Below, piece by piece: positions 645-63,999 of a DNA stretch of 64,000 bases. The translations under genes were made by a program, and so were the position numbers. Each line of letters begins with the position of its first letter. The first letter of the stretch is position 1. A model generated the notes under the pieces. That model was given only the letters and a program-made list of their open reading frames with translations, was not told where the DNA came from and did no database searches. The stretch is taken from positions 24,864,001 to 24,928,000 of the forward strand of contig CM075987.1 of NCBI GenBank assembly GCA_038087875.1. The letters run 5' to 3'. This DNA comes from Malacoraja senta (taxonomy: Eukaryota).

Positions 645-1042
645 CATAGTCTTCTCTATATCCCGCAGCTCTGCTCTTACTCCTCATCCCCCTACTCGTA
701 ACAAGGACAGAGTCCCCTATGTCCTCACCTTCCACCCTACCAGCCGTCACATACAACAGATAATCCTCCAACATTTTCGCCACCTTCATCGGGATCCCAC
801 CACTGGCCTCATCTTCCCATTCTCCAATTTCAGTGGTTTCTCCCTCCTTCCCCTTCCCAGCTCTCCCACAGCCTACTGTCTCTGCCTTTATCCCGCACCC
901 CCACCCCAACTTCAGTCTGAACAAGGGTCTCGACCTGAAACGTCACCTAATCCTTCTCTCCATAGATGCTGCCTCACCCGCTGAGTTACTCCAGCATTTT
1001 TGTCAACCTTCGATTTTTCCAGCTTCTGCAGTTCTCTCTTAA
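645..1042 (+). mobile_element. Penelope-like fragment, internally deleted
   Basis: NKDRVPYVLTFHPTSRHIQQIILQHFRHLHRDPTT (linker upstream of the GIY-YIG domain) joined to the terminal unit with a hammerhead-like motif at 917-944. Confidence 0.8.
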
Positions 1043-2389
1043 TCCACACGGTGGGCGTGTTGACCACAGATTGGACGGGCCTGCAGTGCAGCAGATCCCC
1101 ACACGGTGGAAGTGTTGACCACAAATTGGAGCGACCTGTTATGTGAATTCACTGCACATTGGGAGCGCTGTCTACAAATTAGATATTGTGCTCTTTACTG
1201 CAAGATGGTTCTTTATTGCTCTGTGACCCTTTACCTTTCCCCGTAATGCACCAATTGCACAGATGCCAAACTTAGTAAAAGCCCTGAAACCAGGGAAGAT
1301 TTGGGATGAAAATCAAGGAACTGCAGGTGCTGATTTACAACAAAAAAAAACACAAAGTGCTGGAGTAACTCAGCGGGTCAGGCAGCATCTGTGGAGAACA
1401 TGGATAGGTGACGTTTCACAGAGTGCTGGAATAACTCGCGTTTGATGCCCATAGTAAGAGTTACAGCATTGGGCAGCTCATTCAGGGAGTTCATTGTATG
1501 TGTGAAGTGTGTCTTTGATATAGCTGGCATGTTGCTGAGCCAGTTTGATTATGAAAATAGACAATGTGTTCTTCTGCCCTGTAGGATTCACTACTGCAGA
1601 CACATTTGAATTTCACTGTACCTTAATTGGTACATGTGACCATAAACTGACCTTGAAACATTGGGCCTAGAGTTATTTTTCCAGACCCTGCCCACCCAGT
1701 GTTTGATATTTTGAAGTGAATGTAGAATCTTCTCACCTGCTGCTGTTTCTCCCTCTACAGTTATTCTACTTGTTTCTGGTTGATGTGCCAAGGTCGTTGG
1801 AGATCTTCTAATGTCCCCAGTTTTCTATGGTTTGTGATAGATGGGCTTTGTCAACTTGCTGTTCCAAGTACTGCTTGTAAATAGAGGGTGTGGTCAAGGA
1901 TGTCAGGAGATTTCAATCATTAAAGTGATTTTATTTTGCTATAACCAAGTCTATCTAATCTAGTCTTTGTGGAGATGATATGAAGATAAGGCCCTTGTTT
2001 AGACCTTCTCGTGGTTTCAATGGGGATAAATCTTTGAGAAAGATGAACAATGTCCTTTCCTAATTGCTTTGTGGTCACGTTCCTTGTATTTCAGGGTGCT
2101 GGAATGTTGAGCAGAAGTGCTGGAGGAACTCTGAGGGTCAGGCAGCATCTGTGGGGAAAATAGACAATGGCATTTTGGGTTGGAAACCTACAGACTGGAG
2201 TTGGGGGCGAAAGATGGAAAGTGGGGGTGGGACAAAGCCTGGCATGTGGAGGTGGGTGGTTGGCAGATGGATGGAATAAGTAACAAAGTCCAGAGGTGAA
2301 AGTGATAAAACATGTTGGATAAGAAGGGTAGAGGTGTGGAAGATGAAGCCAGAGGGAGGTTTATGGGTGAATGGGACATGGGAGGGGAT

Positions 2390-2929
2390 AGTTCAAGTTC
2401 AAGTGAGTTTATTGTCATGTGTCCCTGATAGGACAATGACATTCTTGCTTTGCTTCAGCACAACAGAACATAGTAGGCATTGACTACAAAATAGATCAGT
2501 GTGTCCATATACCATTATATAAATATATACACACATGAATAAATAAACTGATGAAGTACAAATAACATATAATGGGCTATTAATGTTCAGAGTTTTGTCC
2601 GAGCCAAGTTTAATAGCCTGATGGCTGTGGGGAAGTAGCTATTCCTGACATGGATGTTGCAGTCTTCAGCCTCCTGTACCTTCTACCTGAAGGTAGCGGG
2701 GAGATGAGTGTGTGGCCAGGATGATGTGGGTCCTTGATGATGCTGCCAGCCTTTTTGAGGCAGCGACTGCGATAGATCCCCTCGATGGAAGGAAGGTCAT
2801 AGCCGATGATGGACTGGGCAGTGTTTACTAATTTGTGTAATCTTTTCCTCTCCAAGGCGCTCATGTTGCTGAACCAAGCCACGATGCAACCGGTCAGCAC
2901 GCTCTCTAGTGTGCACCTGTAGAAGTTAA
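2390..2929 (-). mobile_element. Rex1/Babar-clade LINE 3' end
   Basis: FYRCTLESVLTGCIVAW..AQSIIG..LPSIEGIY..IIKDPHHPGH..LPSGRRYR; 3' aataaa followed by a cttgaa repeat tail. Confidence 0.85.
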
Positions 2930-3531
2930 AGGCCTGTCTCATGAGTCTGCGGTCATTGGCGGCGAAACGGGAAGAATCTGCCGCCATAGACCGCGCACTC
3001 GTGAGAACGTACAATTCCGGGGCCGTGCGGCGGTGTTCCCAACACCGCACGGTGCTAAAATAAAACCGACAATGTTGAAAACAATAATCTTACCGCACAA
3101 CCTCCACCAGTGATGCACAAGTGCGGCGCGGCCGCCCGCACGGGCCGCCACCAGTGTGGCTCGAGCGCCGTGCCTCAAACCTCCACTGCCACAGCCTCCG
3201 CCAGTGAGGCCGTGCCTCCGCCAGTGAGGCACGTGTGCGGCACGGCCGCAGGCACAGCCACTGCTACAGCGCCACGATCAGGACGGCCGCCGCCACAGCC
3301 GCCGCTGGTGAGTCACGTGCGGCGGGCCGACGTCATCGCAGTCGGCCCGCCCTTTTTTTTACTTACCGCAAGCACGTGGGACCCGCCGTGTTTGAATTAC
3401 TCGGCCCCCGCGCAGCATCCGTGAGGCGCTCCGGTGGATAGGCTCGATGCTCTCGCCGTTGCCGTGCGGTCCCCACTACCGGCGACGCCGCGCTTCACCG
3501 CCGATGACCGCAAACAGGTAAGACAGAGCCT
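2930..3531. mobile_element. PIF/Harbinger-type MITE, diverged
   Basis: TAA flanks; imperfect TIRs aggcctgtctc..gtctgcggtcattggcggcgaaacg versus cgcttcaccgccgatgaccgcaaac..agacagagcct. Confidence 0.65.
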
Positions 3532-3534
3532 TAA

Positions 3535-4988: not shown

Positions 4989-5023
4989 GACCTCTGTTGG
5001 ATCTGGGATAATCGGACAGGACC

Positions 5024-6878: not shown

Positions 6879-7124
6879 GAGCTAGCTCTCTCTACTTTCA
6901 TTGCATAGGCCTTGATGAGCGTCTTGAATTCTAGAAATGTAGCATTAGTGTATAGTCAAATGCTGTTCATTTTAGGTTATTGATTGTGACATGAAAACAG
7001 CATGAAAGAGAAAGGTGCAAGTACCTTTTGGCTTTTTTCAATCTTGCACATAACATATGGTACAAGAATATTACCAGGAATTTTCAGTGCCATGTTAAAT
7101 CATGATATGTGTATTAATATCCTC

Positions 7125-7900
7125 AAAGGTACACAAAAATGCGGGAGAAACTCAGCGGGTGCAGCAGCATCTATGGAGCGAAGGAAATAGGCAACGTCTC
7201 GGGCCAAAACCCTTCTTCAGACTGATGGGGGGTGGGGAGAAGAAAGGAAAAAGGCGGAGGAGGAGCCCGAGGACTGAGGGATGGGAGGAGGAGCCGGAGG
7301 GCTGAGGAGGGGGAGGAGACAGCAAGGGCTAGCAAAATTGGGAGAATTCAATGTTCATGTCACCAGGATGCAAACTACCCAAGCGGAATATGAGGTGCAT
7401 TTCCTCCAATTTCCGGTGTTGCTCGCTCTGGCCATGGAGGAGACCGAGGACAGAAAGGTAGGATACGGAATGGGAGGAGGAGTTGAAGTGCTAAGCCACC
7501 GGGAGGTCAGGTTGGTAATTGCAGACCGAGCGGAGGTATTCGGCGAAACGATCGCCAAGCCTCCGCTTGGTCTCACCGATGTAGATCAGCTGACATCTAG
7601 AGCAGCGGATACAATAGATGAGGTTGGAGGAGATGCAGGTGAACCTCTGTCGCACCTGGAACGACTGCTTGGGTCCTTGAATGGAGTCGAGGGGGGAGGT
7701 GAAGGGACAAGTGTTGCATCTCTTGCGGTTGCAAGGGAAAGTGCCCGGGGAGGGGGTGGTACGGGAGGGAAGGGAAGAATTGACAAGGGAGTTACGGAGG
7801 GAGCGGTCTTTGCGGAAGGCAGACATGGGGGGAGATGGGAAGATGTGGCGAGTGGTGGGGTCACGTTGGAGGTGGCGGAACTGACGGAGGATTACTTGTT
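7125..7900 (-). mobile_element. Penelope-like retroelement 3' part with GIY-YIG endonuclease
   Basis: ORF 7491-7826: C..C..C..FTCISSNLIYCIRCSRCQLIYIGETKRRLGDRFAE; followed by a terminal unit with a hammerhead-like motif at 7193-7220. Confidence 0.92.
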
Positions 7901-8196
7901 GGGCGAAACTGACGGAGGATTACTTGTTGGGCGAAACTGACGGAGGATTACTTGTTGGGCGAAACTGATGGAGGATTGATTACTTGTTGGGCGAAACTGA
8001 TGGAGGATTACTTGTTGGGCGAAACTGACGGATTGATTACTTGTTGGGCGAAACCGACGGAGGATTACTTGTTGGGCGAAACTGATGGAGGATTGATTAC
8101 TTGTTGGTTGAAACTGATGGAGGATTGATTACTTGTTGGGTGAAACTGATGGAGGATTACTTGTTGGGCGAAACTGATGGAGGATTGATTACTTGT
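7878..8196. repeat. Minisatellite, about 11 units of 28-32 bp
   Basis: Tandem gaaactgacggaggattacttgttgggc, with or without an extra GATT; no spacers. Confidence 0.92.
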
Positions 8197-14394: not shown

Positions 14395-17300
14395 CAAGGC
14401 TCGAAATTAATGATTGCCCAGTTGCCAATGGCCACCTAAAGTCCCGCCGGGCAACCTAAAAGCCGTGTCATTTTGCCCGGCTTGATATTGCAGATACTGG
14501 TTTATACCGAAGATAGACACAAAAAAATTGTGTAACTCAGCGGGTCAGGCAGCATCTCTGGAGAAGAAGAATAAGTGATGTTTCGGGTCGAGACCCTTCT
14601 TCAGAAGGAGAAGGAAATACATTCAATTTTCCATTAGCCCTCCAGCTATTCATATTCCGGAGAACCAAAACTTGCACTCTGATAGCAGTAAATTTGATGC
14701 AGTATTTTTTGCAGTGTTATTATTGTGCCCATTGGCTCAAATAGGGAATCTGTGGCCGAATAATGGTGCTCGCAAGCGTTCCCTGCAGCCGATCGACACC
14801 GCAGAACTGCAGCCCGCAGATCCCGTCCCACGCACTGCACTGACGCAAGCCAGTGTGATTTTTTAATATGCAAGCGAGCTACGGTGACATTTTTGTTTGT
14901 TTCAAATGCAGAAGCGAACGGAGATAGTTAGAAATAAAATAAATAAACGGTTAGGTGTAGGAAGGAACTGCAGATGCTGGTTTAAACAGAAGATAGCACA
15001 AAAAGCTGGAGTAACTCAGCAGGTCAGGCAGCATCTCTGGAAAAAGGAACTACAGATGCTGGTTTATACCAAAGATAGACACAATAAGCTGGAGAACTCA
15101 GCCAGTCAGGCAGCATTTCTGGAGAAAAGCAATAGGTGACGTTTCGGACCGAGACCCTCTTTCAGACTGAGAGTCAGGGGAAAGGGAAATTATATCTATA
15201 GATAGTGATAGAGAAATATAGAACAAATGAATGAAAGTTATACAACAAAGTAACGATGATCAAGGAAAGGTGGAGCCTGCAATGGTCCATGGTTTGAGAG
15301 AAGGAATGTGTGACCTTTCTTGTCGAGATCCTTCTTCTCCAGAGATGCTATCTGTCCCACTGAGATACTCCAGCATTTTGTGTCTATCTTCAGTGTAAAC
15401 CAGCATCTGCAGTTCCTTCCTACATACATGGTCCATTGTTGGCAGCGAAAATAGACACAAAATGCTGGAATAAATCAGCGGGACAAGCAGCATCTCTGAA
15501 GAGAAGGAATTGGTCCTCCATCCTATTCTCCGACTAGTTTTACTGTCCTCCTGATTAATTTTAATGTTTGCATACCTCGTTGTCACCTTCCCCTCAGCCA
15601 ACAATGAACACAAAACGCTGGAGTTACTCAGCGAGACAGGCAGCATCTTTGGAGGGTCTGAAGAAAGGTCGCGACCTGAAACGTTATTCATTCCTCTCCT
15701 ATCTATCTAGGGTGGGGGTGGTGTGTAGGAAGGAACTGCGGATGCTGGTTTAAACCGAAGATAGACACCAAATGCTGGAAAACTCAGCAGGACAGGCAGT
15801 ATCTCCGGAGGGAAGGAATGGGTGACGTTTCGGGTCGAGATTCTTCTTCAGACTGAGAATCAGGGGAAAGGGAGACAGAGATATGGAATGTTAAGATGTG
15901 AGAACACAGATCAAAGGGGACTATGGTCAAGGAAGGTTTATTGTTAGTGGAGGGGAAGCTGACAACGAGGCAAACAATCAGTAAAATGTTTTAATCAGTG
16001 AAACTAATCGGAGAACTAGGAGGGGTGAGGCGGAGCGAGGGGGAAACAATGCTTACTTGAAGTTAAATAAATCAATATTTATACCGCTGAATAGATACAA
16101 AAAGCTGCAGTAACTCAGCGGGTTCGGCAGCATCTCTGGAGAAAAGGAATAGTGGACATTTCGGGTCAAGATCCTTCTTCATTCATACCACTGGGCTGTA
16201 AGGTGCCCAAGCGAAATATGATCTGCTGCTCCTCCAATTTACCTTGGGCTTCACTCTGGCAGTGGAGAGTGGACGGAGAGAGAGGGGATGCAAGGGTTAC
16301 TTGAAGGTAGATAAATCAATGTTCATACTTTAGTTTAGTATTTAGTTTAAAGATACAGCACGGAAACAGTCCCTTCGGCCCACCGAGTCCGCGCCGACCA
16401 GTGATCCCAACCAACACATACCGCTGGGTTGTAGGTTGCCCAAGCGAAATATGACGTGCTGTTTCTCCAATATACGTTGGGCCTCATTCACTCTGACAGT
16501 GGAGGGTGGACGGCGAGATAGGGGATGCAAGGGTGAAATCTGAAGAAGGATCTCGACCCGAAACGTCACCCATTCCTTCCCTCCAGAGATGCTGCCTGTC
16601 CTGCTGAGTTACTCCAACATTGTGTGTCTATGCTCGATGCGAGGGCTGCTAACGTGCAGTGAAGGGGGGAAAGCGCGCCACATGGGCGCGGGGTGGTTTG
16701 TAGGCCGGCGCTCGCCGTAGGCCGCGGTTGCCGGGGCAACGGCTATAGTGCGGGGTGACAGAGGGTCGGAGTGAATGACAGGCCCCACACAGCAGTAGCG
16801 GCGGCTCCACCTCCTCCTCCACCCGCACCCCGCCCGTCCTCATAGCAGCCTCTGCGTGCCACTCCGCCAACGGCGATTACCGCTTTCAAAACAAACCCTC
16901 CCGCAGGCCGAGGCCGGGTGGAGAGAGGGAGGGAGGAAGGGGGTGGCCCCCCCTCCGCCGTCTGAAACACCTGCACCGCTCGGCCCCTCACCTTCCTGTT
17001 GACTGGCGGAGGAGAGGAGACGGTGACGAGGAACACCAACTGCCTCACCCTTTGGCTGCGGAACTTGGCGGTGGGCAGGGACGGCCAAGGCAGCGGGGCG
17101 ATGATGCCGGTGTTGTCCGAGGAGCGCTGACCTTCCTTCCTCCCCACCTCCTCTACCCCTTCCCCTCTCTCTCTTGTACGCCCCCTCCACCCCTTATCCT
17201 GGGACCCCTCCTCTCCATCCCGCACTGATCCCCATTCGCGCCTGTATTAAGACCTCCCCATCTACCCACCCCCCCATCTATTCATCCTGCACTGATCTCC

Positions 17301-17655: not shown

Positions 17656-17659
17656 CACA

Positions 17660-22124: not shown

Positions 22125-22127
<3 letters not shown>

Positions 22128-47099: not shown

Positions 47100-47744
47100 A
47101 GGGCCTGTCCCACTTGGCCGTCATTTACGCAACAGGCCGGTAGTGACTGACGCGCGACAGTCGCGCATGTCATCATGTGTCCGCACAGCCGTCTGGAACG
47201 CATGACATCATTTGAAGATAGACACAAAATGCAGGAGTAACTCAGCGGGACCGGCAGCATTTCTGGAGAGAAGGAATGGATGATGTTTCGGGTCGAGACT
47301 CTTCTTCAGTCTGAAGAAAGGTCTCGACCCGAAACGTCACCCATTGCTTCTCTCCAGAGATGCTGACGGTCCCGCTGAGTTACTCCTGCATTTTGTGTCT
47401 ATCTCCAATCGTCTTGGCCCCGCTCTGGGAAAAGGAGTGGGGGCGGATCTGGATCCGCAACGGCAGTGAGCCCCAGGCCGAGCTCAGCGATCGCTTGCCT
47501 GCTTCTGCGCCGTTGCGCCAGGGTGTGACGTTGCGCCACGCCAGGGTGTCCCACTTGGCCGCCATTTACGCGACAGGCCGGTGGCGCGCGAAGATTTCGT
47601 GCAGAACCAAATCCTGGAGCGCTGCGTGATACCGCGCGCAACTCCACACTCCTCCACGCCACTCCATGCACCCGTCCCACGCTACCCACACGCTACCAGG
47701 TCGCGTAAATGGCGCGCAAATGACGGCCAAGTGGGACAGGCCCT
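47100..47744. mobile_element. PIF/Harbinger-type MITE, related family
   Basis: TAA TSD; 31-bp TIR agggcctgtcccacttggccgtcattt(a/g)cgc. Confidence 0.85.
47311..47338 (+). ncRNA. Minimal hammerhead-ribozyme-like motif, with an inverted copy at 47282-47309
   Basis: ctgaagaaaggtctcgacccgaaacgtc back-to-back with its reverse complement. Confidence 0.55.
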
Positions 47745-49160: not shown

Positions 49161-50711
49161 CATATACCATTCTATAAATATATACACACATGGATCAATA
49201 TACTGATAAAGTGCAAATAACAGTTAATGGGTTATTAAAGTTCAGAGTTTTGTCCGAGCCAGGTTTAATAGCCTGATGTAAGGTTAAGTCCAGTAAAGTC
49301 AGGTCAAAGATAGTCCCAGGGTCTTCAATGAGGCAAGTAAAGAGATGCAGAAATCAGTATTGTGGTATATTTTGCTATGATACCGTTATAGAGTTATAGA
49401 TCCCGACTACGGGTGCTGTCTGTACGGAGTATGTACGTTCTTCCCGTGACCTTCGTGGGTTTTCTCCGAGATCTTCCGTCTCCTCCCACACTCCAAAGAC
49501 GCACAGATTTATAGGTGGAATTGTAAATTGTTCTTGGTGTGTGTGGGATAGTATAAGTGTACTGGTCGGCGTGGACTCGGTGGGCCGAAGGGCCTGTTTC
49601 CACGCTGCATCTCTAAACTAAACTAAACTAAAAAGAGATGACACTTTACTGACTCCAGTACAGATATGAAGCAATAGATGAAAACCATGTTCATAAAATT
49701 AATGCGATCTAATTGCCAATGACATCTGCTCAGCTCCTCATGTTTCCGTGCATGAATCTAATCCCCCCCAAGGAACAATACCCTCGTTGCTGAATCAAAT
49801 GTGACAGTGCTTTGCTGATATTAAAATAGCACACATGGAATATATCTTACCTCCTAAATAAACAAACGGCAAAGACAATTTTAATGCAATAACTGTCATC
49901 TTTGATATGCCTTGAAATTTAGCAATATCGAGAGAAAAACTGGCTTGAATTGTAGGACATGGAAGGAATGAGCAACTTGCTAGACATGTTCATATGTTCT
50001 ACATAAGAGCAGAATTAGGCCATTTGGCCCATCAATTCTACCCCGCCATACAATCGTGGCTGATCTATCTATTCCTCCTAACCCCATCTCCTGCCTTCTC
50101 CCACTAATCAACAACCTGTCAATCTCTGCCTTAAAAATCCATTGACTTGGCCTCCACAGCCTTCTGTTGCAATGAATTCCACAGGTTCACCACCCTCTGA
50201 CTAAAGAAATTCCTTCTTATCTCCTTTCGAAAGGTACGTCCTTTTATTCTGAGGCTGTGGCCTCTGGGTCCCAGACTCTCCCACTAGTGGAAACATCCTC
50301 TCCACATTCACTCCAACCAGGCCTTTCACTATTCGGTAAGTTTCAACGAGGGACCCCCACCATCCTTCTAAACTCCTTCACGACATGCATGTCTTGTCTG
50401 AAAGCGTTGCAAATAAGTCAGCTGATTCTCACGTTCGTCAATGGTCACGTGGACAGAGAAAATCAATCTCTCCGCACCTTTTCATGCCAGGAGTCAAGTG
50501 TCCACTTAACGTGGTTACTGCAGATATCTGCTGTTTCAACTGTCCTCTTGCTTGCTGCCAATTCTGAATTTCAATACCCAACGCGTGTTGTGCCTTTCCC
50601 ATGACAGCACGACAAAAATTCTCAAAGACGTTTCCGCAGAGTTCCTGTTGCCACAATATGTTACCAAGAGGCTACAAATTTTCAGAACCCGATTAATGTC
50701 TGCATGTTCAT

Positions 50712-51292
50712 GAAGGAACTGCAGATGCTGGAAAATCAAAGGTAGACAAAAGTGCTGGAGAAACTCAGCGGGTGAGGCAGCATCTATGGAGCGAAGGAAA
50801 TAGGCAAAGTTTCGGGCCGAAACCCTTCTTCAGTGGGGTGGGGGGGGGGGGGGGGGGGGCGGGAAGAAGAAAGGAAGTGGAGGAGCCAGAGGGTTGAGGG
50901 AGAGCTGAGAAGGGGAGGAGACAGCAAGGGCTACAGGAAATTGGAGGATTCAATGTTCGTGCCGCTGGGGTGCAGACTGCCCAAGCGGAATATGAGGTGC
51001 TGCTCCTCCAATTTCCGGTGGTGCTCACTCTGGCCATGGAGGAGGCCCAGGACAGAAAGGTCGGATTCAGAATGGGAGGGGGGAGTTGAAGTGCTGAGCC
51101 ACAGGGAGATCAGGTTGGTTAATGCGGACCGAGCGGAGGTGTTTGGCGAAACGATCGCCAAGCCTACGCTTGGTCTCGCCGATGTAGAGCAGCTGACATC
51201 TAGAGCAGCGGATGCAATTGATGAGGTTGGAGGAGGTCCAGGTGAACCTCTGTCGCACCTGGAACGACTGCTTGGGTCCGTGAATGGAGTCA
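50712..51292 (-). mobile_element. Penelope-like retroelement 3' fragment (GIY-YIG)
   Basis: ORF 51067-51342: SSNLINCIRCSRCQLLYIGETKRRLGDRFAKHLRS; near-identical to the 7125-7900 copy. Confidence 0.9.
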
Positions 51293-51967
51293 AATTTCCA
51301 AATCATAAAAGATGTATCCCGACCTGAAACACAACCATCCATGTTCTCAAGGGATGCTGCCTGATGCAGATGTTGTGCAGATGTTGGTTTGTAAAATAAG
51401 ACACAAAGTGCTGGAGTAAATCAGCGGGTCAGGAAGCATTTCTGGAGGACAGGGAAAGGTGATGCGTTGGGCCATTACCTACCTTCCTTCCTGCTTTCTC
51501 CATCCCCATACTATAATCAGTCTGAGGAAGGGTCCTGAACCGAAACGTCGCCTGTCCATGTTCTCCAGAGATGTGTAGGAAGAAACTGAAGATGCTGGTT
51601 TACAACGTAGATAGGTGCAAAATGCTGGAGTAACTCAGAGGGACAGGCAGCATCTCTGGAGAGAAGGAATGGGCGACGTTTCTCTCCAAGGATTTCGACC
51701 CGAAACGTCACCTATTCCTTTTCTCCAGAGATGCTGCCTGGCCCGCTGAGTTACTCCAGCACTTTGTGTCTATTTTTAGCTGGTAAATGGGATGAGCGTT
51801 GATGAGTAATTGGTGGTCGGCCTAGAAATGATGGCCAAATGAATATGTGCATTCGTCCCTTCAAGTCTACTCATTATTATATTCAGCAACGGTGTGAATT
51901 AAACCCAGATTAGACTACATGTGTAGGAAGGAACTGCAGATGTTGGTTTACACCAAAGATAGACACA

Positions 51968-52358
51968 GTCGCTGCCTCAAAAAGGCTGGCAGCATCATCA
52001 AGGACCCACACCATCCTGGCCACAAAACACATCTCCCCGCTACCTTCAGGTAGAAGGTACAGGAGCCTGAAGACTGCAATGACCAGGTTCAGGAATAGCT
52101 ACTTCCCCACAGCCATCAGGCTATTAAACTCGGCTCGGACAAAACTCTGAACATTAATAGCCCATTATCTGTTTATTTGCACTTTATCAGTTTTATTTAT
52201 TCATGTGTGTATATATTTATATAATGGTATATGGACACACTGATCTGTTCTGTAGTCAATGCCTACTATGTTCTGTTGTGCTAAAGCAAAGCAAGAATTT
52301 CATTGTCCTATCAGGGACACATGACAATAAACTCTCTTGACTCTTGACTCTTGACTTG
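51968..52358 (+). mobile_element. Rex1/Babar LINE 3' end
   Basis: Same sequence as 2390-2760 in the opposite orientation; tail (ctcttga)n. Confidence 0.85.
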
Positions 52359-53265
52359 AATGCTGGATCACTCAGCGGGTCAGGCAGCATCTCTGGAGAA
52401 AGGGAATAGGTGACGTTTCGGGTCGAGACCTTTCTTTAGACAGGCTACTTTAACTGTGGTCAAATAAATCAAATATCAAGGTTTAATAGCTCACGATTTT
52501 TTTTTTTGAGTCATAGAGCGATATAGGATGGAAACAGGCCCTTTGGCCCAACTTGCCCACACCGGCCCGCATGTTGCAAGCTACACTAGTCCCACCTGCC
52601 TGCGTTTGGGCCTGTCGTAGATTGCACAGTTGTAGATACTTGGTCGCTGAGCACTTGATGGATGTGTCCCATCCAGTGCAAACATCTTTGGGGGGAAAAG
52701 AGAAGCAGATGTTTGTGAAGAGAAAATAAAGTTACTGCTTCCTTTCACTTAATCCAGCAGACAACCGTGCAAACTACGAGAGACAACCCTGCTGGTGTAC
52801 ATTCAGTGGAGGAACCAACCCAGCCACCGTGATGTTACACGGAGCTTCCCGTCGAGGCAATGTGAAGCCAATAAACTCTAGATGAGGCACAAAATGCCGG
52901 AGTAACGTTGGGGGACATTTCGGGTCGAGACCCTTCTTCAGACGCTCGACCCGGAACGTCACCCATTCCTTCTCTCCAGAGATGCAGCCTGTCCCGCTGA
53001 GTTACTCCAGCTTTTTGTGTCTATCTTCGGTGTAAACCAGCATCTGCAGTTCCTCCCTGCACAAAGTCTAGATGAGCACAGGAGATGGAACAATTGGACT
53101 GATTCTGTCCATTGTCAACCAGGTTGGTTAGATGGGATTAATCCAAGTCACTTTGTGGCCTCTCGGGCACATCCACCAGTGAAACATTAGTGAGGCAGGA
53201 TACTTGGAGTTTGACTGCGTCACTGATTGTACAAAAAGAATACACTCTGCTGATTCACTGCAAAT

Positions 53266-53917: not shown

Positions 53918-56251
53918 CTGAAAAGACAAATTAAAACGTTAGGGGAAAGTCGAACTCCGAATTGACCTTGAAGATACACACAAAATGCTGGAGTAACTCA
54001 GCGGGACAGGCAGCATCTCTGGAGAGAAGGAATGGATGACGTTTCGGGTCGAGTCCCTTTGGTTTAAAGTGACTCCCAACATTAGAGTACAAACACAAAA
54101 CGCTGGAGTAACTCAGCGGGCCAGGCAGCATCTCTGGAAAGGAATGGGTGACGTTTCGGGTCGAGACCCTTCTTCGGTTTAAACCAGCAACTGCGTCACC
54201 CATTCCTTCTCTCCAGAGATGCTGCCGATCCCGCTGAGTTACTCCAGCGTTTTATGTCTACCTTCGATTTAAACCAGCATCTGCAGTTCCTTCACACAGA
54301 TCAAATCGGATGCTGATAAGGAAATGTAGAATGGTTCATTGTTAGCTGAGGGGAAGGTGACAACGAGGCGTACAGTCAGCAATATTTAATCAGGAGGACA
54401 GTAGAACTAGTTGGAGAACTAGGGTGGGGGAGGGCGGGAGATAGATTGACCTTAACAGCGACTAAGCTAAGAAGAAAGATTTTTCACAAAGTGTGCTCCG
54501 AGCTTCATTCATCTATTTCATTGGGCCAGACAACTTGTTAAATGTTACAAATTGTCTAATTCTTCGGAGACTGCCAGTCCAAATTAGACCTTTAAAAATC
54601 ATCGCTACTCATGTGCAAGTTTAAATTCAGCTATCTCCTTAGGGTATACGTTTGTTCAAAATTGACTGCCCTTGGTATTTTTATGAAGCCCAATCTCTTT
54701 CTGTTGACGTGCTTCAACAGAACTCTAAAACCGTTCGAAAGAAAATGAAACGCTAATAAAATACCAGTCACACTATGTGGTCCGATGAATTTGCAATGGA
54801 CGTGGAGAAAAATCCATTAAGTGTTCATAAAGTTGGATCATATATCACCATGGATGGAGGTTTGTTAAAGTACAGGAGACAGGTTGGAGGAATGATTGAA
54901 GACACGGCTTGATGTGATTTGGGCAGCATGGTGGCGCTGCGGTAGAGTTGCTCGCCTTACAGCGCCTACAGCGTCAGAGACCCGTGTTCGATCCTGGCTA
55001 CAGGTGCTTCCCTGTACTGCGCTTGTACGTTCTCACCATGACCTGCGTGGGTTTTCTCCAAGAACTTCAGTTTCCTCCCACACTCCAAAGACGTACAGCT
55101 CTGTAGGTTAATTGGCTTCGTATATCAATGTAAAAAAAAATGTCCCCAGCGTATGATAGCGTTAATGTGCGGGGATCGCTGGTCGATGCGGACTCGGACG
55201 CGCCGTATCTCAAAATTAAAACTAAACATGGGGAACTGCAGATGCTGGAATTTTAAGTAAAACACAATGTGCTGGAGGAACTCAGCTGGCCAGGCGGACT
55301 CTGACTGAGGGATTGCAGAATGGACTGACAAAGTTCTGGGTCCAAATGGCCTCCTCCTGCACCTGCTTTCTATGTTTCTATTTTTCTAATCCAAGTCCAT
55401 CCAACCTGTCCATGCAGCTGCAACCCTCTAATCCAGACGGCATTGTGGTGAACCTCCCCTGCACCCTCTCCAAAGCCACCATATCTGCGTGGTAATTCAC
55501 ATCCTGTCCGCCAGTAAGCTGTAGATTTCTCTGTACTCGTGGTCTGATTAAAAACACAGCATCTTTTGCCAGTGGTTAGTAAAATGATGACTTGAAGAAT
55601 GAATATGGTAACCCCAGTAACACGACACGATACAGGAACTTATTGGGATGGCAGGTTGAACAATTTACTTACCGCAGTGCAATAAGGGCCAAAGTTGTGT
55701 CCTCTGCTTAATTCATATAATTAAACAGGCAGCAACTAGAAACAGGTTCAAATGGCACGCATAACAACTTGATTAAGTAATGCTGCAATAGTCCTTGTGA
55801 GATTAGCTTTTTAAATATTGCTTCACATCTCTAAAGGTTAATTAACTCTGCGTGCACAAGTACACCACAATTCAAACTCGCACAACACGATAGCAACTCC
55901 CAAAGCCGCTTCTGTGGAGTTCCTGTTGCCACGACGTGTTGCCTGTAGCACGCACATTTTCACAACCTGGTCAGTATCAGAATGGATCGGTGTCAACATG
56001 TGGAAACGAGGAACTGCAGATTAATTCATTCATCATCCATTCATCATCGTTGAAAACGTCAGCGACGCAGCGGCGCCGGTTTCCGACGGGAACGGTGACG
56101 GACGCACCACACATCTCCGTCCTCCAGTTCCTGCGGACTTCCGCCGCTGGAAGTTTAGGATTTTGTTGTGTGTGTGTGTTTTATCATCGTTCCTTACAAT
56201 GCCGTGTACGACAGTGATCGCAACTTCTACTGAAGTGTGGATGGCCGTTGG

Positions 56252-57685: not shown

Positions 57686-59879
57686 AGACGGCCAAAGACT
57701 GGCAGCGGTGGAGTAGCTGCCTTACAGCGCTCGCAGGGGCTGAAGACCCGGGTTCGATCCTGACCACGAGTGCTGTCTGTACGGAGTTTGCACGTTCTCC
57801 CCGTGACCTGCGTGGGTTTTCTCCGAGATCTTCGGTTTCCTCCCACACTCAAAAGACGTACAGGTCTTCTCGAACAGCCATCAGGCTATTAAACACGATA
57901 ACACATAAGCTCTGAACTGCAACAGACTATTATTAATATTGCACCATATTTGTTATTTATTGAGATTAAGTATGTGGGCATGTGTATACACACACTGAAC
58001 TTTTTTATTTCTTCTGAGGAAGGGTTTCGGCCCGAAACGTTGCCTATTTCCTTTGCTCCATAGATGCTGCCTCACCTGCTGAGTGTCTCCAGCATTTTTG
58101 TCTACCTTTTGTTTTCCTTCTCCCGTTATGTTCTATGTTTACCTTCTGTTGTGCTGCAGCAAGCAAGAATTTCATTGTTCTATCTGGAACATATGACAAT
58201 AAAATACTCTTGACTCTTGGTATATAAGTTAATTGGCTTGGGTTTGTATACTTGGTATTAGTGTAAATTGTCCCTAGTGTGTGTAGGCTTGTGTTAATGT
58301 GCGTGGATCGCTGGTCAGTGCAAACTCGGTGGGCCGAAGGGCCTGTATCCGCGCCGAACTAAACTAAAACAATGAGCTTTACTTACAAATCCACAAATGC
58401 AGCACGGCAAGAGGAGGATAAATCATGTTCATAAGTGATAGGAGCAGAATTAGGCCATTTGGCCCATCGAGTCTACTCCGCCATTCAATCATGGCTGATC
58501 TATCTCTCCCTCCTAACCCCATTCTCCTGCCTTCTCCCCATAACCCGTGACACTTGCGATTTGTTTATCAGGCCAGCTAGCCACTTTGATTCTCCTTCCC
58601 ATTCACACGCCACCCTGTCTTAGCTCAGCCTCCTCGATTGCTCGAGTGAAGCCATGCGCAAACTGGAAGAACAACACCTCATATTCCACTGGCTACAAAC
58701 AATGGCATGAATATTGAGTTCTTCTCATCCACCCTGCTTTACCTCAACCCACGTCCACAACTTTCTCTCCACTCCCTCCACCTCCAACACAGAGTTCTTT
58801 CTTCCCCTTATCTCATTCCCTTCTTCCGACCATCCCCAAGTGTTTCTACATTTCACAAACCACTTTCCTTCCTGATCATCTTACACCCTTTTTGTCTTCT
58901 CAACTTATCGCCTCCAGCCTTGGTTACTATCCCCACCTTCCCCAGCTGACCCATCGGCCAAACAGCACTGTGCGTGGGAAGGAACTGCAGATGCGGGTTT
59001 ACACCGAAGATAGACACAAAATGCTGGAGTAACTCAGCGGGTCGACAAAAGGAACAGGTGAAGTTTCAGGTCGAGACCCTTCTTCAGCCTCAGGGTATTG
59101 ACCTGAAATGTTAGCTATTCCTTTTCTCCAGAGATGCTGCCTGACCTGCTGAGTTACTTCAGCATTTTGTGTCTATCTTCGATGCCAAATAAGCATTGTC
59201 CTGTCTGGATCCACCTATCACTTACCACCTTCTGCTCCATCCCTTATTCTCACCTCCTCTACTCCATCAGTCCAACGAAGGGTTCCGACCCAAAATAGCA
59301 TCTGTCCATTTCCCTCTCCACGGAGTGACACATGACAAAATAATGGATGTACTGGGCTTGTATTCACTGGAATTTAGAGGGATGAGAGGGAATTTTATAG
59401 AAACATATAACATTCTTAAGGGATAGGACAGGCTAGATGCAGGAAAAATGATCCCGGTGTTGGGGGAAGTCCAGAACCAGGGGTCACAGTTTAAGAATAA
59501 GGGGTATGCCATTTAGGACTGAGAGAGGAAAATGGCCTACTCCTGCACCTTTTTTCTATGTCTCGATGACCCGCTGAGATCGTGCATCAGTTTGTGTTTT
59601 ACGATCCCTTGGGACTCTGTTTTATTGCAAGACGTAGGTTGGCATTTTGGGTACATTTTGAAAAGATTTAAATGATTTTCTTTCAATCTGCTGAGAAACC
59701 GGCACTTGTACTTGAGTCTGGCTGGAACTAGACTATTGTGTATGTCAAGTTGTTTTCATTCATTTAAATCCAGGATCCTCGCAGATGGTGAAGAGGTGTT
59801 AAATGTTCTAATGCTTTTTGAGAAACACTTACATTCAGCAGTAACTATTAGACTCTACCAAGTCATCAGCCTCAGCTAG

Positions 59880-61707: not shown

Positions 61708-62170
61708 TACCAAAAAGTGGTAAATACTGCCCAGTCCATCATCGGCTCTGACCTCCCTTCCATCGAGGGGATCTATCACAGTCGCTGCCTCAAAAAGGCT
61801 GGCAGCATCATCAAGGACCCACACCATCCTGGCCACACACTCATCTCCCCGCTACCTTCAGGTAGAACGTACAGGAGCCTGAAGACTGCGACGACCAGGT
61901 TCAGGAACAGCTTATTCCCCACAGCCATCAGGTTATTAAACCTGGCTCGGACATAACACTGAACTTTATTAGCCAATAATCTGTTTATTTGCACTTTATC
62001 AGTTTATTTATTCGTGCGTGTATATATTTATGCAATGGTATATGGACACACTGATCTGTTCAGTATTCATGCCTACTATGTTCTGTTGTGCTAAAGCAAA
62101 GCAAGAATTTCATTGTCCTATCAGGGACACATGACAATAAAACTCTCTCTTGAACTCTTGAACTCTCTTG
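61708..62170 (+). mobile_element. Rex1/Babar LINE 3' end, inserted in a SINE
   Basis: QKVVNTAQSIIGSDLPSIEGIY..RFRNSLFPTAIRLLN; SINE halves flank it (61603-61705 and 62173 onward). Confidence 0.85.
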
Positions 62171-63344
62171 ACCACGTGGGTTTTCTCCAGGTGCTCCAGT
62201 TTCCTCCAAAGACGTACAGGTTTGTAGGTTAATTGGCTTTGGTAAAAATTGTAATAAACTTAATGTGTGTGGGATAGACAACAGACAATAGGTGCAGGAG
62301 TAGGCCATTCGGCCCTTAGAGCCAGCACCGCCATTCAATGCGATCATGGCTGATCATCCCCAATCAGTTCCCCAATAGACAATAGATAGTGGATAGATAG
62401 TGTTAGTTTACGGGGTGATAGGAGGAGAACTTGGACTCGGCGGGTTGAAGGGCCTGTTTCCAGTCGGGACCCTTTCTTCAAGGAAGATCTGAAGAAAATA
62501 CCGAACCGAGACATCACCTATCCCTGCTCACCGGAGACGTTGTTGCCCTGCTGACTCACACCACCATTTTGTGCCTTTTTTCCTCCAATAAAGCCGTATC
62601 CACTTTACACTTAACATTCAGTGGCGTCCCCGTTACTAAGAACTCACTTTCAAACGCCAGACATGAAACTGAACTGGACCGGATGCACACCAGACACTGT
62701 TTCTACAAGGGGTCAGAGCTATGGACCCTGGAACAAGTAACTCCCTTCCAGAAGGCTTTGCGAGAAGTGTCAGGTGCAAGTCAAGAGTCTGATGGTGATT
62801 GCCTGCTATCCACAGTCTTCACCTCTTGCTTTTGTTGTTCAGTAACAGATATAACCCTGCTCTAAAGGCTCAGCAGGTCAGCACCCAATTTCAAGTGTGA
62901 CTTCTGTGTACAATGCAGAGCTTTTAGTAGCGGTGAAATGAGTGGCGATCTTACCCATGTCTGTATTACTGTTCAAGATTGATGCACACGACATCTCCGG
63001 AGTTAGTTTTTTTCCACCATCTGTTTTTAGTTTCAGAGATCACCCGTACACTAGCAATACCCTGCACGCCAGGACCCATTTACAATGTTACCAAAGCCAA
63101 TTAAACTACAAACCTGAACATCTTTGGAGTGCGGGAGGAAACCGGAGCACCCGGAGAAAACCCACGCGGTCACGGGGAGAACGTACAAAACTCCGTACAG
63201 ACAGCGCCCGTAGTCAGGATCGAACGTGGGTCCCCGGAGCTGCAAGGGAGCAACTCTATCGCTGTGATGCGCTGCCCTAATGCCCCACATGACAATGTGA
63301 AATGACTGGTCTAAAAGCCAAACGACTGCATTTTGGTCAGATGG

Positions 63345-63752
63345 TCAATAGACAATAGACAATAGGTGCAGGAGTAGGCCATTTGGCCCTTCGAGCCAGC
63401 ACCGCCATTCAATGTGATCATGGCTGATCATCCCCAATCGGTACCCCGTTCCTGCCTTCTCCCCATATCCCCTGACTCCGCTATTTTTAAGAGCCCTATC
63501 TAGCTGTCTCTTGAAAGCATCCAGAGAACCTGCCTCCACCGCCCTCTGAGGCAGAGAATTCCAAAGACTCACCACTCTCTGTGAGAAAAAGTGTTTCCTC
63601 GTCTCCGTTCTAAATGGCTTACTCCTTATTCTTAAACTGTGGCCCCTGGTTCTGGACTCCCCCAACATCGGGAACATGTTTCCTGCCTCTAGCGTGTCCA
63701 AGCCCTTAACAATCTTATATGTTTCAATAAGATCCCCTCTCATCCTTCTAAA
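63345..63752 (-). mobile_element. CR1 LINE 3' end
   Basis: FRRMRGDLIETYKI..RTRGHSL..VVSLWNSLPQ; tail (ctattgt)n. Confidence 0.88.
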
Positions 63753-63970
63753 CCCCAACAGCTAAAACCACAGCAAAAACCAGTTATTTGATGACTAACA
63801 GCTGGCGAGTGCTTTTCCAACCTGACTTCTGTGTTACACAGGCACAAGAACATTGTAAATAGGAACAGGAGCCCTCAAAACCTGCTCCACTGCTCAACAA
63901 GGCTGTGGTTGCTCTAATCTTGGCCTCAGTTCATCTTTCCTATCTGTTCAGCATCGTTCTGACTCTCAGT

Positions 63971-63999
63971 CTGAAGAAGGGTCTCGACCCCGAAACGTC
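63971..63999 (+). ncRNA. Minimal hammerhead-ribozyme-like motif
   Basis: ctgaagaagggtctcgaccccgaaacgtc at the window end. Confidence 0.55.

What the first reader, a model, noticed from the sequence alone, without database searches (positions are those of the whole stretch)
917..63999. Dense population of minimal hammerhead-ribozyme-like motifs on short non-coding Penelope-derived units
Seen: the motif CTGA(A/G)GA-A-GGG..CCC-GAAACGT(C/T) occurs on + near 917, 15658, 16540, 21353, 25970, 31281, 42648, 43966, 47311, 51522, 58014 and 63971. It occurs on - near 7193, 14577, 15138, 15825, 16155, 27801, 29837, 35188, 38040, 42971, 47282, 50807, 52412, 52914, 54150 and 59059. Stem II varies while staying paired (GGGTCTCGACCC, GGGTTTCGGCCC, AGGTCGCGACCT). 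Almost all copies are followed by the same ~100-nt tail ending ccagcatctgcagttccttc, and two sit directly downstream of Penelope GIY-YIG ORFs. Established: Penelope-like elements carry minimal type I hammerheads with a very short helix III that can act as dimers. Inference: the ~130-nt unit behaves as a SINE/retrozyme-like non-autonomous element at about one copy per 2-3 kb inside a neural gene intron. Helix I is weak, so activity is unproven.
Basis: partly seen in the sequence, partly recalled or inferred. Interest (0 to 1): 0.75.

Follow-up and report, generated by a model that had tools for sequence, protein, structure and literature searches.

The report
Penelope retrotransposon stubs carrying mini-hammerheads
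The repeated motif is the already-described minimal hammerhead ribozyme of Penelope-like retrotransposons, scattered here as short, probably dead-end end-pieces of one hugely amplified element family: a known kind of thing in unusual abundance.

Summary
The motif is real. All 28 listed sites are copies of one repeat; 24 match at up to 1 mismatch against 0.04 expected. It shows the sequence hallmarks of the metazoan Penelope-like-element (PLE) minimal hammerhead described in 2014: CUGANGA and GAAA boxes, an extra base after A9, G10.1-C11.1, and a loop-less palindromic helix III (ACGU). It lies about 105-120 nt downstream of RT/GIY-YIG ORFs.

The "unit" is the stretch from the hammerhead to the element's two alternative 3' ends, at about position 97 or 131. 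This is the known PLE "tail" signature. Copies are solo stubs, 5'-truncated PLE ends, or head-to-head inverted pairs (32 against 6 tail-to-tail). There are no tandem arrays in the window.

Stem II shows no covariation beyond chance. Helix I is 2 bp. Rfam models find nothing. The dimer fold is energetically poor. Catalysis is therefore unproven.

Elsewhere in the genome the same family forms full tandem PLEs, retrozyme-like 254-384-nt arrays, and two arrays whose monomers begin at or within 1 nt of the predicted cleavage site.

Verdict: new member of a known kind, remarkable mainly for abundance (102,633 intact descriptors).

The parts
917..1047 (+). Unit copy, model positions 1-131 (long tail). 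Hammerhead box at 917-944 with 1 core mismatch. An older PLE ORF remnant lies upstream at 649-840.
7123..7220 (-). Unit copy 1-97 (short end), the 3' end of a 5'-truncated PLE. Hammerhead box at 7193-7220.
7332..7901 (-). PLE ORF remnant matching aa 1056-1245 of the L038 ORF at 93% identity. It holds the CX4CXXC linker and the GIY-YIG endonuclease (with a frameshift). It ends 112 nt upstream of the hammerhead.
14487..14604 (-). Solo unit 1-116 that starts at the hammerhead edge
14952..15165 (-). Two same-strand fragments (41-131 and 1-121). Hammerhead at 15138-15165 with C-rich pLTR sequence upstream.
15296..15851 (.). Nest of six fragments on both strands, including hammerheads at 15658+ and 15824-. 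These are inverted and interrupted copies.
16091..16181 (-). Unit 2-91 (short) beside a weak PLE ORF remnant at 16169-16267
16540..16639 (+). Solo unit 1-99 (short)
21353..21521 (+). Unit 1-132 (long) with a 1-nt deletion in the box, preceded by a 23-nt C-rich tandem array at 20966-21333
25970..26046 (+). Solo unit 1-76 flanked by a 13-bp target-site duplication, CATCTGAATAATA. Four bases (AAGT) lie between the duplication and the box.
27737..27945 (.). Head-to-head inverted pair: minus arm 1-93 (short), plus arm 16-129 (long)
29736..29863 (-). Unit 2-127 (long) with TTCAGT upstream
31165..31374 (.). Head-to-head pair: minus arm 15-132 (long), plus arm 1-93 (short)
35088..35319 (.). Head-to-head pair: 1-127 (long) and 11-100 (short). 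It scores as a miRNA-like hairpin in the Rfam E-value scan.
37901..38198 (.). Four fragments. The unit at 37972-38067 (1-95) is inserted into an older unit, with a 10-bp duplication TCTCCAGAGA.
42648..42772 (+). Solo unit 1-130 (long); the box is identical to the consensus
42865..42998 (-). Solo unit 1-132 (long), with AGT before the box and then unrelated flank
43966..44399 (.). Cluster of four fragments, including hammerheads at 43966+ and 44172-44199-. It contains tail-to-tail and head-to-head junctions.
44601..44815 (.). Head-to-head pair (17-133 and 3-108)
45783..45957 (.). Head-to-head pair (4-100 short and 48-132 long)
47209..47409 (.). Near-perfect head-to-head pair, both arms from position 1 (1-100 and 1-98). 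As RNA it folds into a hairpin about 96 bp long, -169 kcal/mol, z -27.6.
50701..50833 (-). Unit 1-133 (long), the 3' end of a truncated PLE
50937..51297 (-). PLE ORF remnant (aa 1125-1244, 83-85% identity; GIY-YIG) ending 104 nt upstream of the hammerhead
51310..51996 (.). Cluster of six fragments, including hammerhead 51522+. That copy is cut at position 52 by an inverted long-tail copy.
52352..52438 (-). Solo unit 2-89 (short)
52908..53065 (.). Head-to-head pair (1-34 with an internal deletion, and 13-131)
53965..54301 (.). Three fragments: a same-strand pair (7-100 and 3-89) plus an inverted arm 10-130
58014..58114 (+). Solo unit 1-100 (short) of the GGGTTTCGGCCC/GTT subfamily
58971..59185 (.). 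Head-to-head pair (1-129 long and 8-100 short)
63971..64000 (+). Unit start with a 1-nt insertion, cut off by the window end

Best explanation
The motifs are copies of the minimal, loop-less-helix-III type-I hammerhead that Penelope-like elements (PLEs) carry in their pseudo-LTR. [quoted passage not shown]

In the tandem master arrangement (L039) the order is: ORF stop; a 116-nt C-rich spacer ending in TCAGT; the hammerhead (unit positions 1-28); about 70 nt; a first 3' end near position 97; an optional tail of about 35 nt to position 131; the 5' UTR; an in-frame ATG at 164-166; the ORF.

Reverse transcription is target-primed and starts inside the RNA at either of two neighbouring sites. Every insertion therefore ends about 97 or about 131 nt after the hammerhead start. 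This step is inferred here from the 3'-end classes and was shown in vitro for an Anolis PLE.

Most cDNAs are short. They either run on into the spacer or ORF as ordinary 5' truncation, or they stop within about 4 nt upstream of the hammerhead core. My preferred reading of that stop, which is an inference, is that a transcript starts at the A of TCAGTCT. That sequence fits the initiator consensus as I recall it. Priming at the first downstream start site would then give a 100-134-nt 'strong-stop' stub.

Priming on both nicked DNA strands (shown in vitro for the Anolis element, inferred here) gives head-to-head inverted pairs, usually with the tail on one arm only.

The window's copies are dead on arrival, because they lack the RNA downstream of the start site that the propagating derivatives keep. 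The hammerhead itself could act only as a dimer between two copies on tandem transcripts. Whether it cleaves in vivo is open.
For: Motif features. Each of the following is listed by Cervera & de la Pena 2014 as emerging beyond their search descriptor, and each is present in the consensus CTGAAGA-A-GGGTCTCGACCC-GAAAC-GTC: the extra base between positions 9 and 10.1, G10.1-C11.1, and a palindromic 15.2-16.2 with no loop.

PLE linkage. There are 4 ORF remnants directly upstream of 4 of the 28 sites. L038 is a copy of about 3.9 kb bounded by a 14-bp target duplication. Its stop-to-stop frame is 1245 aa, with RVT_1 at residues 729-897 and GIY-YIG at 1149-1182 (both under Pfam's cut-off), and the hammerhead lies about 120 nt after the stop. 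A tandem array with a period of about 3.87 kb shows the full order of parts.

Tail signature. Of 156 fragments, 68 end at model positions 84-104 and 62 end at 116 or later. This matches the 'optional 30-40 bp tail' and the two adjacent start sites reported.

Inverted pairs. There are 32 head-to-head, 6 tail-to-tail and 9 same-strand neighbours (p = 2.4e-5 for 32 against 6). In 16 of the 20 classifiable head-to-head pairs one arm is long and the other short (p = 0.006). [quoted passage not shown]

Discrete 5' end. In 50 of 75 copies homology stops within 3 nt of the box. One solo copy has a 13-bp target duplication, then AAGT, then the box.

Abundance. The exact 28-mer occurs 18,728 times. The descriptor CTGANGA-N13-GAAACGTH occurs 102,633 times against 27 for the reversed control. 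The endonuclease query gave 65,557 first-look candidates, and the 150 scored were 94-100% identical.
Against: No hammerhead family of Rfam matches, at gathering score or at E up to 10, in the window or in the 801-nt L039. This is expected for a loop-less helix III, but it is still a failed test.

Helix I is only U-A plus G-C, paired in 70.5% of cells. There is no covariation in any helix.

The core boxes (about 0.93-0.96 identity, inflated at the alignment edge) are no better kept than three tail blocks at positions 42-56, 66-79 and 104-118.

The hammerhead-dimer conformation scores -6.1 kcal/mol against -33.5 for the dimer MFE. In that MFE, GAAGAAGGGU pairs with the pyrimidine stretch after the cleavage site. 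The monomer fold has z = -0.62.

Only 2 of 156 fragments start at position 29, the predicted cleavage product.

Target duplications of 7 bp or more were found for only 2 of 18 solo copies (shuffled mean 0.18, maximum 2).

The transcription-start reading has no RNA evidence behind it. A polypyrimidine tract followed by CAG at the same place could instead be a 3' splice site, as in D. virilis Penelope.

The Pfam hits for RT and GIY-YIG are below the curated cut-offs.
Confidence: 0.8

Rival explanations
1. The ~130-nt unit is a self-propagating non-autonomous element (SINE- or retrozyme-like) with its own master copies. PLE enzymes mobilise it, and the hammerhead processes its transcripts.
For: The unit has a discrete 5' end at the hammerhead edge in 50 of 75 copies. 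Stubs outnumber ORF-bearing copies: about 33 motif copies per 200 kb of random sample, and only 4 of 28 window sites have an ORF remnant. The same family does give tandem, ORF-less, hammerhead-bearing arrays elsewhere, with monomers of 254-384 nt (L042, L044-L046). A 2026 preprint argues that animal retrozymes derive from PLE pLTRs and leave dispersed monomers.
Against: The window has no head-to-tail array of the unit (TRF; 9 same-strand neighbours against 32 head-to-head). All four hammerhead-bearing tandem derivatives keep unit positions -34 to +220. The stubs end at position 97 or 131 and so lack that part. ARAGORN finds no tRNA-like head. Stub subfamilies (GTC and GTT types) are the same as those attached to spacers and ORFs.
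Confidence: 0.12
2. The conserved 28-nt block is not a working ribozyme in this lineage. It hitch-hikes or serves another role, such as a core-promoter or leader element, or part of a stem that the PLE protein recognises. Its hammerhead likeness is then an inherited relic.
For: Helix I is 2 bp, there is no covariation, and the dimer energy is poor. Only 2 of 156 copies begin at the cleavage site. In the Anolis PLE, hammerhead mutants did not change insertion in vitro, and no RNA-seq reads began or ended at the site. PLE clades without hammerheads proliferate well, and 'HHRs may simply parasitize PLEs'. In vitro activity of metazoan PLE hammerheads is low.
Against: Two of the six tandem arrays examined have monomers that begin at unit position 29 (L041, exact) or at 28/29 (L043, 1-nt ambiguity). 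That is the predicted 5' product of cleavage. Their 3' boundaries differ (166 and 193) and each junction type occurs at one locus only. With about 390 possible positions, my rough estimate for 2 of 6 within 1 nt by chance is about 1e-3. The box and TCAGT stay the same across PLE subfamilies whose spacers are unalignable (listing).
Confidence: 0.35
3. The inverted pairs are foldback or MITE-type DNA transposons, and the solo units are their halves.
For: 32 head-to-head pairs form long hairpins; 47209-47409 folds at -169 kcal/mol.
Against: The outer ends of the arms coincide with the two PLE 3'-end classes, and the arms are unequal: 16 of 20 pairs are long plus short, and the inner arm is truncated by 1-65 nt. 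The same sequence is colinear with PLE ORFs and tandem PLEs. No fixed target duplication was found. Inverted 5'-truncated copies are a described PLE feature.
Confidence: 0.02

Closest known systems
Minimal hammerheads (min-HHRs) of metazoan Penelope-like elements (Cervera & de la Pena 2014, PMC4209133; main text parts 1-2 read)
   Same: Type-I order of boxes. No helix III loop, with a palindromic 15.2-16.2. An unpaired base between positions 9 and 10.1. G10.1-C11.1. Location in the pLTR after the RT-EN ORF. Mostly solo copies 'probably related to truncated PLEs', with some pairs on opposite strands.
   Different: Helix II is 4-5 bp here, against 6-8 bp in their S. mansoni and D. virilis examples. 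Helix I is 2 bp (theirs is 4-5 bp, and 2 bp only in D. virilis). Copy number is far higher: 102,633 exact descriptors here, against about 4,000 in coelacanth and about 9,000 in Xenopus by their own, different, descriptor.
Poseidon PLE of Anolis carolinensis, PAc (Mob DNA 2024, PMC11167929; passages read)
   Same: Hammerhead close to the start of the element's coding part. Two adjacent 3'-end or start sites roughly 100 nt downstream of the hammerhead, giving an optional tail of about 35 nt. Tandem organisation. Extension of both DNA strands would explain the inverted pairs seen here.
   Different: In PAc the start sites lie 111-118 nt inside the ORF and the ORF begins within the hammerhead. Here the two ends (about 97 and 131) lie upstream of the in-frame ATG at 164-166. 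The linker CX4CXXC suggests the Neptune-like clade rather than Poseidon; this is my inference from the motif named.
Non-LTR retrozymes of animals (Cervera & de la Pena 2020, PMC7229834, abstract seen in the listing; Li, Clavereau & Pollet 2026 preprint, abstract and Results part 1 read)
   Same: The same genome holds head-to-tail arrays of ORF-less monomers (254, 260, 275 and 384 nt), each with spacer, hammerhead, tail and 5' UTR, derived from this PLE by internal deletion.
   Different: The window's copies are solo or inverted, not tandem. No circular RNA evidence was obtainable.
Penelope of Drosophila virilis (Schostak et al. 2008, PMC2377424, passages; Cervera 2014)
   Same: An internal TATA-less promoter in the pLTR. 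An intron whose 3' end abuts a 2-bp helix I. Here a polypyrimidine tract plus CAG lies directly before the box.
   Different: No transcription start or splicing data exist for this family. In D. virilis the start lies 46 nt plus a 75-nt intron upstream of the hammerhead, not at its edge.
Sm-alpha / Sj-alpha SINE-like hammerhead elements of schistosomes (named in the review PMC6765202, passages)
   Same: Short, dispersed, very abundant units carrying a type-I hammerhead with a weak helix III
   Different: According to that review, those elements have their own promoter ahead of the hammerhead and are canonical hammerheads. No promoter head was found here.

Membership tests
Metazoan PLE minimal hammerhead (min-HHR) | Conserved core CUGANGA ... 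GAAA in type-I order, with the cleavage triplet (GUH) directly after | tested here: met
   The consensus of 61 aligned copies is CTGAAGA-A-GGGTCTCGACCC-GAAAC-GTC. There are 102,633 exact descriptors in the genome against 27 for the control. In 17 of 28 window sites the 10-letter core is intact.
Metazoan PLE minimal hammerhead (min-HHR) | [quoted passage not shown] | tested here: met
   Column 16 (A) is at least 90% conserved. The feature is named.
Metazoan PLE minimal hammerhead (min-HHR) | G10.1-C11.1 closing pair of helix II | tested here: met
   The pair of columns 17 and 28 reads GC in 42 copies, GU in 10, AU in 1 and other in 8, of 61
Metazoan PLE minimal hammerhead (min-HHR) | No helix III loop; palindromic 15.2-16.2, so that two copies can pair | tested here: met
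   ACGU: the A-U pair is kept in 57 of 61 copies and the C-G pair in 36 of 61, with U-G in 9 from CpG decay
Metazoan PLE minimal hammerhead (min-HHR) | Helix I of 4-5 bp (2 bp in the D. virilis variant) | tested here: inconclusive
   Only U-A and G-C pairs are possible, paired in 70.5% of cells. This fits only the D. virilis-type variant.
Metazoan PLE minimal hammerhead (min-HHR) | Lies in the pLTR of an RT + GIY-YIG element | tested here: met
   L038, L039, L040 and window sites 7193- and 50807-
Metazoan PLE minimal hammerhead (min-HHR) | Compensatory changes within consensus families | tested here: not met
   2 double-change cells of 549, below the shuffled mean of 6.2. The copies derive from very few, nearly identical sources.
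Metazoan PLE minimal hammerhead (min-HHR) | Self-cleavage as a dimer | not testable with these tools
   Only indirect evidence is available. Two arrays have monomers starting at position 28/29. The predicted dimer energy is poor.
Rfam hammerhead families (covariance models) | Score at or above the gathering threshold | tested here: not met
   No hammerhead hit at gathering score or at E up to 10, in the window or in L039
Penelope-like element, EN+ (Neptune-like) | Single ORF with an RT followed by a C-terminal GIY-YIG nuclease | tested here: met
   RVT_1 at residues 729-897 (27.0 bits, cut-off 29.6) and GIY-YIG at 1149-1182 (19.2 bits, cut-off 22.6) of the L038 frame. Both are below the cut-offs, but the order is as required.
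Penelope-like element, EN+ (Neptune-like) | DKG motif, and a CX2-5CxxC linker before the EN | tested here: met
   KPADKGG and CNRKRCNTC were read by eye in the translation. The motifs are named.
Penelope-like element, EN+ (Neptune-like) | Optional 30-40-bp tail; tandem or partial-tandem pLTRs; an adjacent inverted 5'-truncated copy; heavy 5' truncation | tested here: met
   68 short against 62 long ends. Tandem array on contig C1122. 32 head-to-head pairs. 65,557 EN candidates against 9,121 N-terminal candidates.
Non-LTR retrozyme | Head-to-tail arrays of short hammerhead-bearing monomers | tested here: not met
   Not met in the window. Met elsewhere in the genome for the same family (L042, L044, L045, L046).
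Non-LTR retrozyme | Circular RNA of monomer length | not testable with these tools
   No RNA holder is listed
SINE | Pol III-type head (tRNA, 5S or 7SL) with an internal promoter | tested here: not met
   ARAGORN finds 0 genes in the window. No Rfam tRNA, 5S or 7SL hit overlaps the unit.
MITE / foldback DNA transposon | Terminal inverted repeats with fixed-length target duplications | tested here: not met
   The arms are unequal and end at the PLE 3'-end classes. There is no consistent duplication.

The most novel reading that the evidence does not exclude
The PLE transcript begins about 3 nt upstream of its own hammerhead core, at the A of TCAGTCT, an initiator-like site. The ribozyme is then the capped leader. 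Dimer cleavage at position 28|29 would shed a 31-nt capped leader and leave a 5'-OH RNA.

Reverse transcription from the first internal start site on uncleaved RNA gives the 100-134-nt stubs. From cleaved RNA it gives units that start at position 29, as in the two arrays L041 and L043.

Priming on both strands turns many stubs into near-perfect hairpins of about 100 bp. From 16 pairs in the 200-kb random sample I estimate on the order of 1.5e5 such loci in the genome. Many would lie in introns, making a very large built-in source of double-stranded RNA.
Probability: 0.15. Interest if true: 0.6.

Novelty: new member of a known kind. Interest (0 to 1): 0.33.

Why it matters
What metazoan PLE hammerheads do, and whether they cleave at all in vivo, is still open. 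This genome offers an unusually rich natural test bed within one young family. It holds more than 100,000 intact cores, full tandem PLEs, ORF-less retrozyme-like arrays, and two arrays whose monomers begin at or within 1 nt of the predicted cleavage site. It also holds a large population of stubs whose 5' end sits at the ribozyme's edge.

The stub and hairpin load matters for annotation. The repeat covers about 4% of the random sample and 9.7% of this window. Its hairpins give miRNA-like false positives, it invites assembly errors, and it may yield double-stranded RNA from introns.

For the scan itself, the finding is a correct recognition of a known motif class, not a new one.

Tried and rejected
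Rfam. The gathering scan gave 0 hits. The E-value scans of the window and of L039 gave no hammerhead family. The best hits were miRNA-like hairpins that coincide with inverted pairs.

Covariation on 61 copies: none.

Conservation of the boxes against the flanks: not distinctive. It is also uninformative, because the copies decay neutrally.

Target-duplication scan of 18 solo copies: only 2 hits of 7 bp or more.

Direct junction of the short 3' end to the 5' end of L038: the pattern had 0 matches. L038 proved to be simply 5'-truncated. The shared start of the 39 other matches at query position 1238 only marks L038's own end.

Ten loci fetched for the ORF N-terminus were 97-99% identical over their whole 3.4 kb. 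They are copies of one larger duplicated block, not independent insertions, and they held no unit.

L027 held a frame of 820 aa but no hammerhead within reach, because the spacer is expanded into an array of at least 1 kb.

RNA evidence. No RNA holder is listed. The four runs laid were contigs only and cannot show RNA ends, strand or expression. Parts without cover are not interpreted.

Earlier scan notes: none found.

Literature. No paper in the library holds the 20-mers of the motif. Lunse, Weinberg & Breaker (RNA Biol, PMC5785218) is not held; I know it only from its title in a reference list and from recall. A search for PLE-driven SINEs or hairpins found nothing specific. Supplements of the papers cited, including the min-HHR alignments of the 2014 paper and the family tables of the 2026 preprint, were not read. 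They may already hold this family.

Genome-wide rates are therefore extrapolated from 200 kb plus pattern counts.

'Neural gene intron': not tested.

Full report
**Observation**

The pattern CTGARGA-N13-GAAACGTY has 24 matches in the window at up to one mismatch, against 0.04 expected. A profile built from nine long copies finds 67 fragments of one repeat in the window. They cover 6,237 bases, or 9.7%. Four of them escaped because of an indel or more than one mismatch. Ten core letters are intact in 17 of 28.

The statement that almost all copies carry the same ~100-nt tail is only partly right. Eleven of 28 reach '...cagcatctgcagttcc...'. Twelve stop about 35 nt earlier, and five are cut or interrupted.

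**What the unit is**

Four PLE ORF remnants lie directly upstream of hammerhead copies: 649-840+, 7901-7332-, 16267-16169- and 51297-50937- (translations).

In the window's own genome (1.94 Gb) the endonuclease piece has 65,557 first-look candidates, and the 150 scored are 94-100% identical.

One copy, L038, is bounded by a 14-bp target duplication. Its stop-to-stop frame is 1245 aa. By eye it holds a DKG motif and a CX4CXXC linker, and Pfam finds RVT_1 and GIY-YIG, both just under Pfam's cut-offs. Its hammerhead lies about 120 nt after the stop codon, and the copy ends about 92-97 nt after the hammerhead start.

A head-to-tail array with a period of about 3.87 kb shows the master order:
- ORF stop;
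- a 116-nt C-rich spacer ending in TATCAGT;
- the hammerhead (unit 1-28);
- the short end near position 97;
- the tail to about position 131;
- the 5' UTR;
- an in-frame ATG at 164-166;
- the ORF.

The 'unit' is therefore the stretch between the hammerhead and the 3' end of PLE insertions.

**Comparison with what is in print**

Cervera & de la Pena 2014 defined metazoan PLE 'min-HHRs'. They list, as features not imposed by their search, an unpaired base between positions 9 and 10.1, G10.1-C11.1, and a palindromic 15.2-16.2 without a loop. All three are present here.

They also report that most motifs are solo, 'probably related to truncated PLEs', that some lie in pairs on opposite strands, that D. 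virilis has a 2-bp helix I abutting an intron end, and that in vitro activity is low and needs dimers.

Craig et al. 2021 describe heavy 5' truncation, partial tandems, an adjacent inverted 5'-truncated copy, and a 30-40-bp tail that is often present at one end only.

The 2024 Anolis study shows that reverse transcription starts at two adjacent internal RNA sites, which explains the tail. It also shows that the protein nicks and extends both DNA strands, that hammerhead mutants do not change insertion in vitro, and that no RNA-seq reads end at the cleavage site.

**Quantification on 264 kb**

The sample is the window plus twenty random 10-kb stretches. It holds 156 fragments, of which 89 lie in the random 200 kb (4.0% of the bases).

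*3' ends.* They fall in two classes: 68 at model positions 84-104 and 62 at 116 or later.

*Neighbours.* Within 60 nt there are 32 head-to-head, 6 tail-to-tail and 9 same-strand neighbours (32 against 6, p = 2.4e-5). In 16 of the 20 head-to-head pairs whose arms can both be classed, one arm is long and the other short (expected half; p = 0.006).

*5' ends.* Of 75 copies that hold the hammerhead start, 25 continue upstream through at least 4 letters of ATCAGT into C-rich spacers of several unalignable kinds. The other 50 show 3 or fewer consecutive matches. By eye, about 7 of those 50 are mutated TCAGT. More than half therefore end within about 4 nt of the core. Only 2 of 156 fragments start at position 29, the predicted cleavage product.

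*Target duplications.* They were found for 2 of 18 solo copies. One is a 13-bp duplication followed by AAGT and then the box.

*Tandem arrays.* Tandem Repeats Finder finds no array of the unit in the window.

**Ribozyme tests**

No hammerhead model of Rfam matches, even on 801 nt at E up to 10.

On 61 gaplessly aligned copies, helix II is paired in 90% of cells, the ACGU palindrome in 84% and helix I in 70.5%. Changes on both sides occur in 2 of 549 cells, fewer than in shuffles.

Core letters are about 0.93-0.96 conserved. Three tail blocks are equally conserved. The most variable stretch is positions 29-41, just after the cleavage site.

The dimeric hammerhead conformation evaluates to -6.1 kcal/mol against -33.5 for the best dimer fold. 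In that best fold, GAAGAAGGGU pairs with the pyrimidine run after the site. A single unit is not unusually structured (z = -0.62). An inverted pair is a hairpin of about 96 bp (-169 kcal/mol, z = -27.6). This explains the miRNA-like sub-threshold hits.

**Beyond the window**

The descriptor CTGANGA-N13-GAAACGTH occurs 102,633 times in the genome, against 27 for the reversed control.

A 31-mer spanning the tail and the 5' UTR occurs 633 times, partly in short-period arrays. I read six of these arrays.

Four arrays are head-to-tail arrays of ORF-less monomers that keep spacer, hammerhead, tail, 5' UTR and the ORF start:
- unit -128 to 263, period 384;
- unit -57 to 223, period about 275;
- unit -35 to 220, period 254;
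- unit -34 to 226, period 260.

These four fit the description of non-LTR retrozymes as PLE derivatives.

Two arrays lack the hammerhead box. Their monomers begin at position 29 (L041, junction ATG|ACCT) or at 28/29 (L043), with different 3' boundaries (166 and 193). Each junction type is confined to one locus, with 11 and 4 identical copies. Two of six junctions landing within 1 nt of the predicted cleavage site is unlikely by chance; my rough estimate is 1e-3. This is the only hint here that the site is used in vivo. It stands against the 2 of 156 result for dispersed copies.

**Other organisms**

Contigs of runs labelled with three other coded organisms cover the unit at 85% likeness or more. 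Their flanks diverge just upstream of the box and after about unit positions 85-94 and 129-131. These contigs say nothing about expression. No RNA holder is listed.

**Interpretation**

*Shown.* The motif class, the PLE linkage, the two 3'-end classes, the head-to-head bias with unequal arms, the discrete 5' end at the box, the lack of covariation, and the abundance.

*Inferred.* The stubs are by-products of PLE reverse transcription that starts at the first internal site on RNAs beginning at the A of TCAGTCT; I recall the initiator consensus as YYANWYY or TCAKTY. The inverted pairs come from priming on both strands. The stubs are dead on arrival, because they lack unit positions 132-220, which all four propagating derivatives keep.

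*Open.* Whether the hammerhead cleaves, and what fixes the 5' end. The candidates are a transcription start or a 3' splice-site-related process, as in D. virilis.

**Verdict**

This is a correct spotting of a known motif class on Penelope-derived sequence. It is a new family member, notable for copy number and for the variety of derivatives in one genome.

Noticed in passing
window 12272-13006 (-): Tc1/mariner-type transposase remnant: DDE_3 (E = 2e-11) and HTH_Tnp_Tc3_2 (E = 1.9e-13) in two adjacent frames.
   Followed up: no
window 17330-17653 and 20966-21333: Two arrays of a C-rich 23-nt repeat (CCCCATTCATCCTGTACTGATC-like). The first lies just before RT-bearing frames at 17639-18733+ (RVT_1). 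The second lies just before the hammerhead copy at 21353. They may be an expanded PLE spacer of another subfamily.
   Followed up: no
window 26302-26806: A 16-nt G-rich tandem array, GGTGGGGGTCGGAGGG x 31.6, 92% matches. It explains the many overlapping open frames there.
   Followed up: no
window 15350-15488, 35164-35270, 44667-44766: Sub-threshold Rfam hits to miRNA precursor families (E = 2e-4 to 0.06). These are simply the hairpins of inverted repeat pairs and would give false miRNA calls.
   Followed up: partly
L027 (G000:C353:14000-19000): In this copy the spacer between the ORF stop and the hammerhead is expanded into at least 1 kb of proline-rich-reading tandem repeat. A smaller version lies at window 7256-7318 and 7874-8186.
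   Followed up: no
L028-L037: Ten loci on small contigs are 97-99% identical over their whole 3.4 kb, including 1.2-1.5 kb upstream of the PLE frame. This is a larger duplicated or satellite-like block that carries a PLE copy.
   Followed up: partly
window 3712-4851 (+) and 23840-24211 (-): Further reverse-transcriptase fragments (RVT_1, E = 0.009 and 2e-7) that did not match the PLE frame. They probably come from other retroelements.
   Followed up: no
window (whole): The window holds 400 N, that is, assembly gaps. They were not located.
   Followed up: no
unit positions 3-12 and 29-40 (e.g. window 42959-42998, minus strand): The purine half of the hammerhead box (GAAGAAGGGU) is complementary, with two bulges, to the pyrimidine run right after the cleavage site. 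This gives the predicted monomer fold, which competes with the hammerhead fold.
   Followed up: partly
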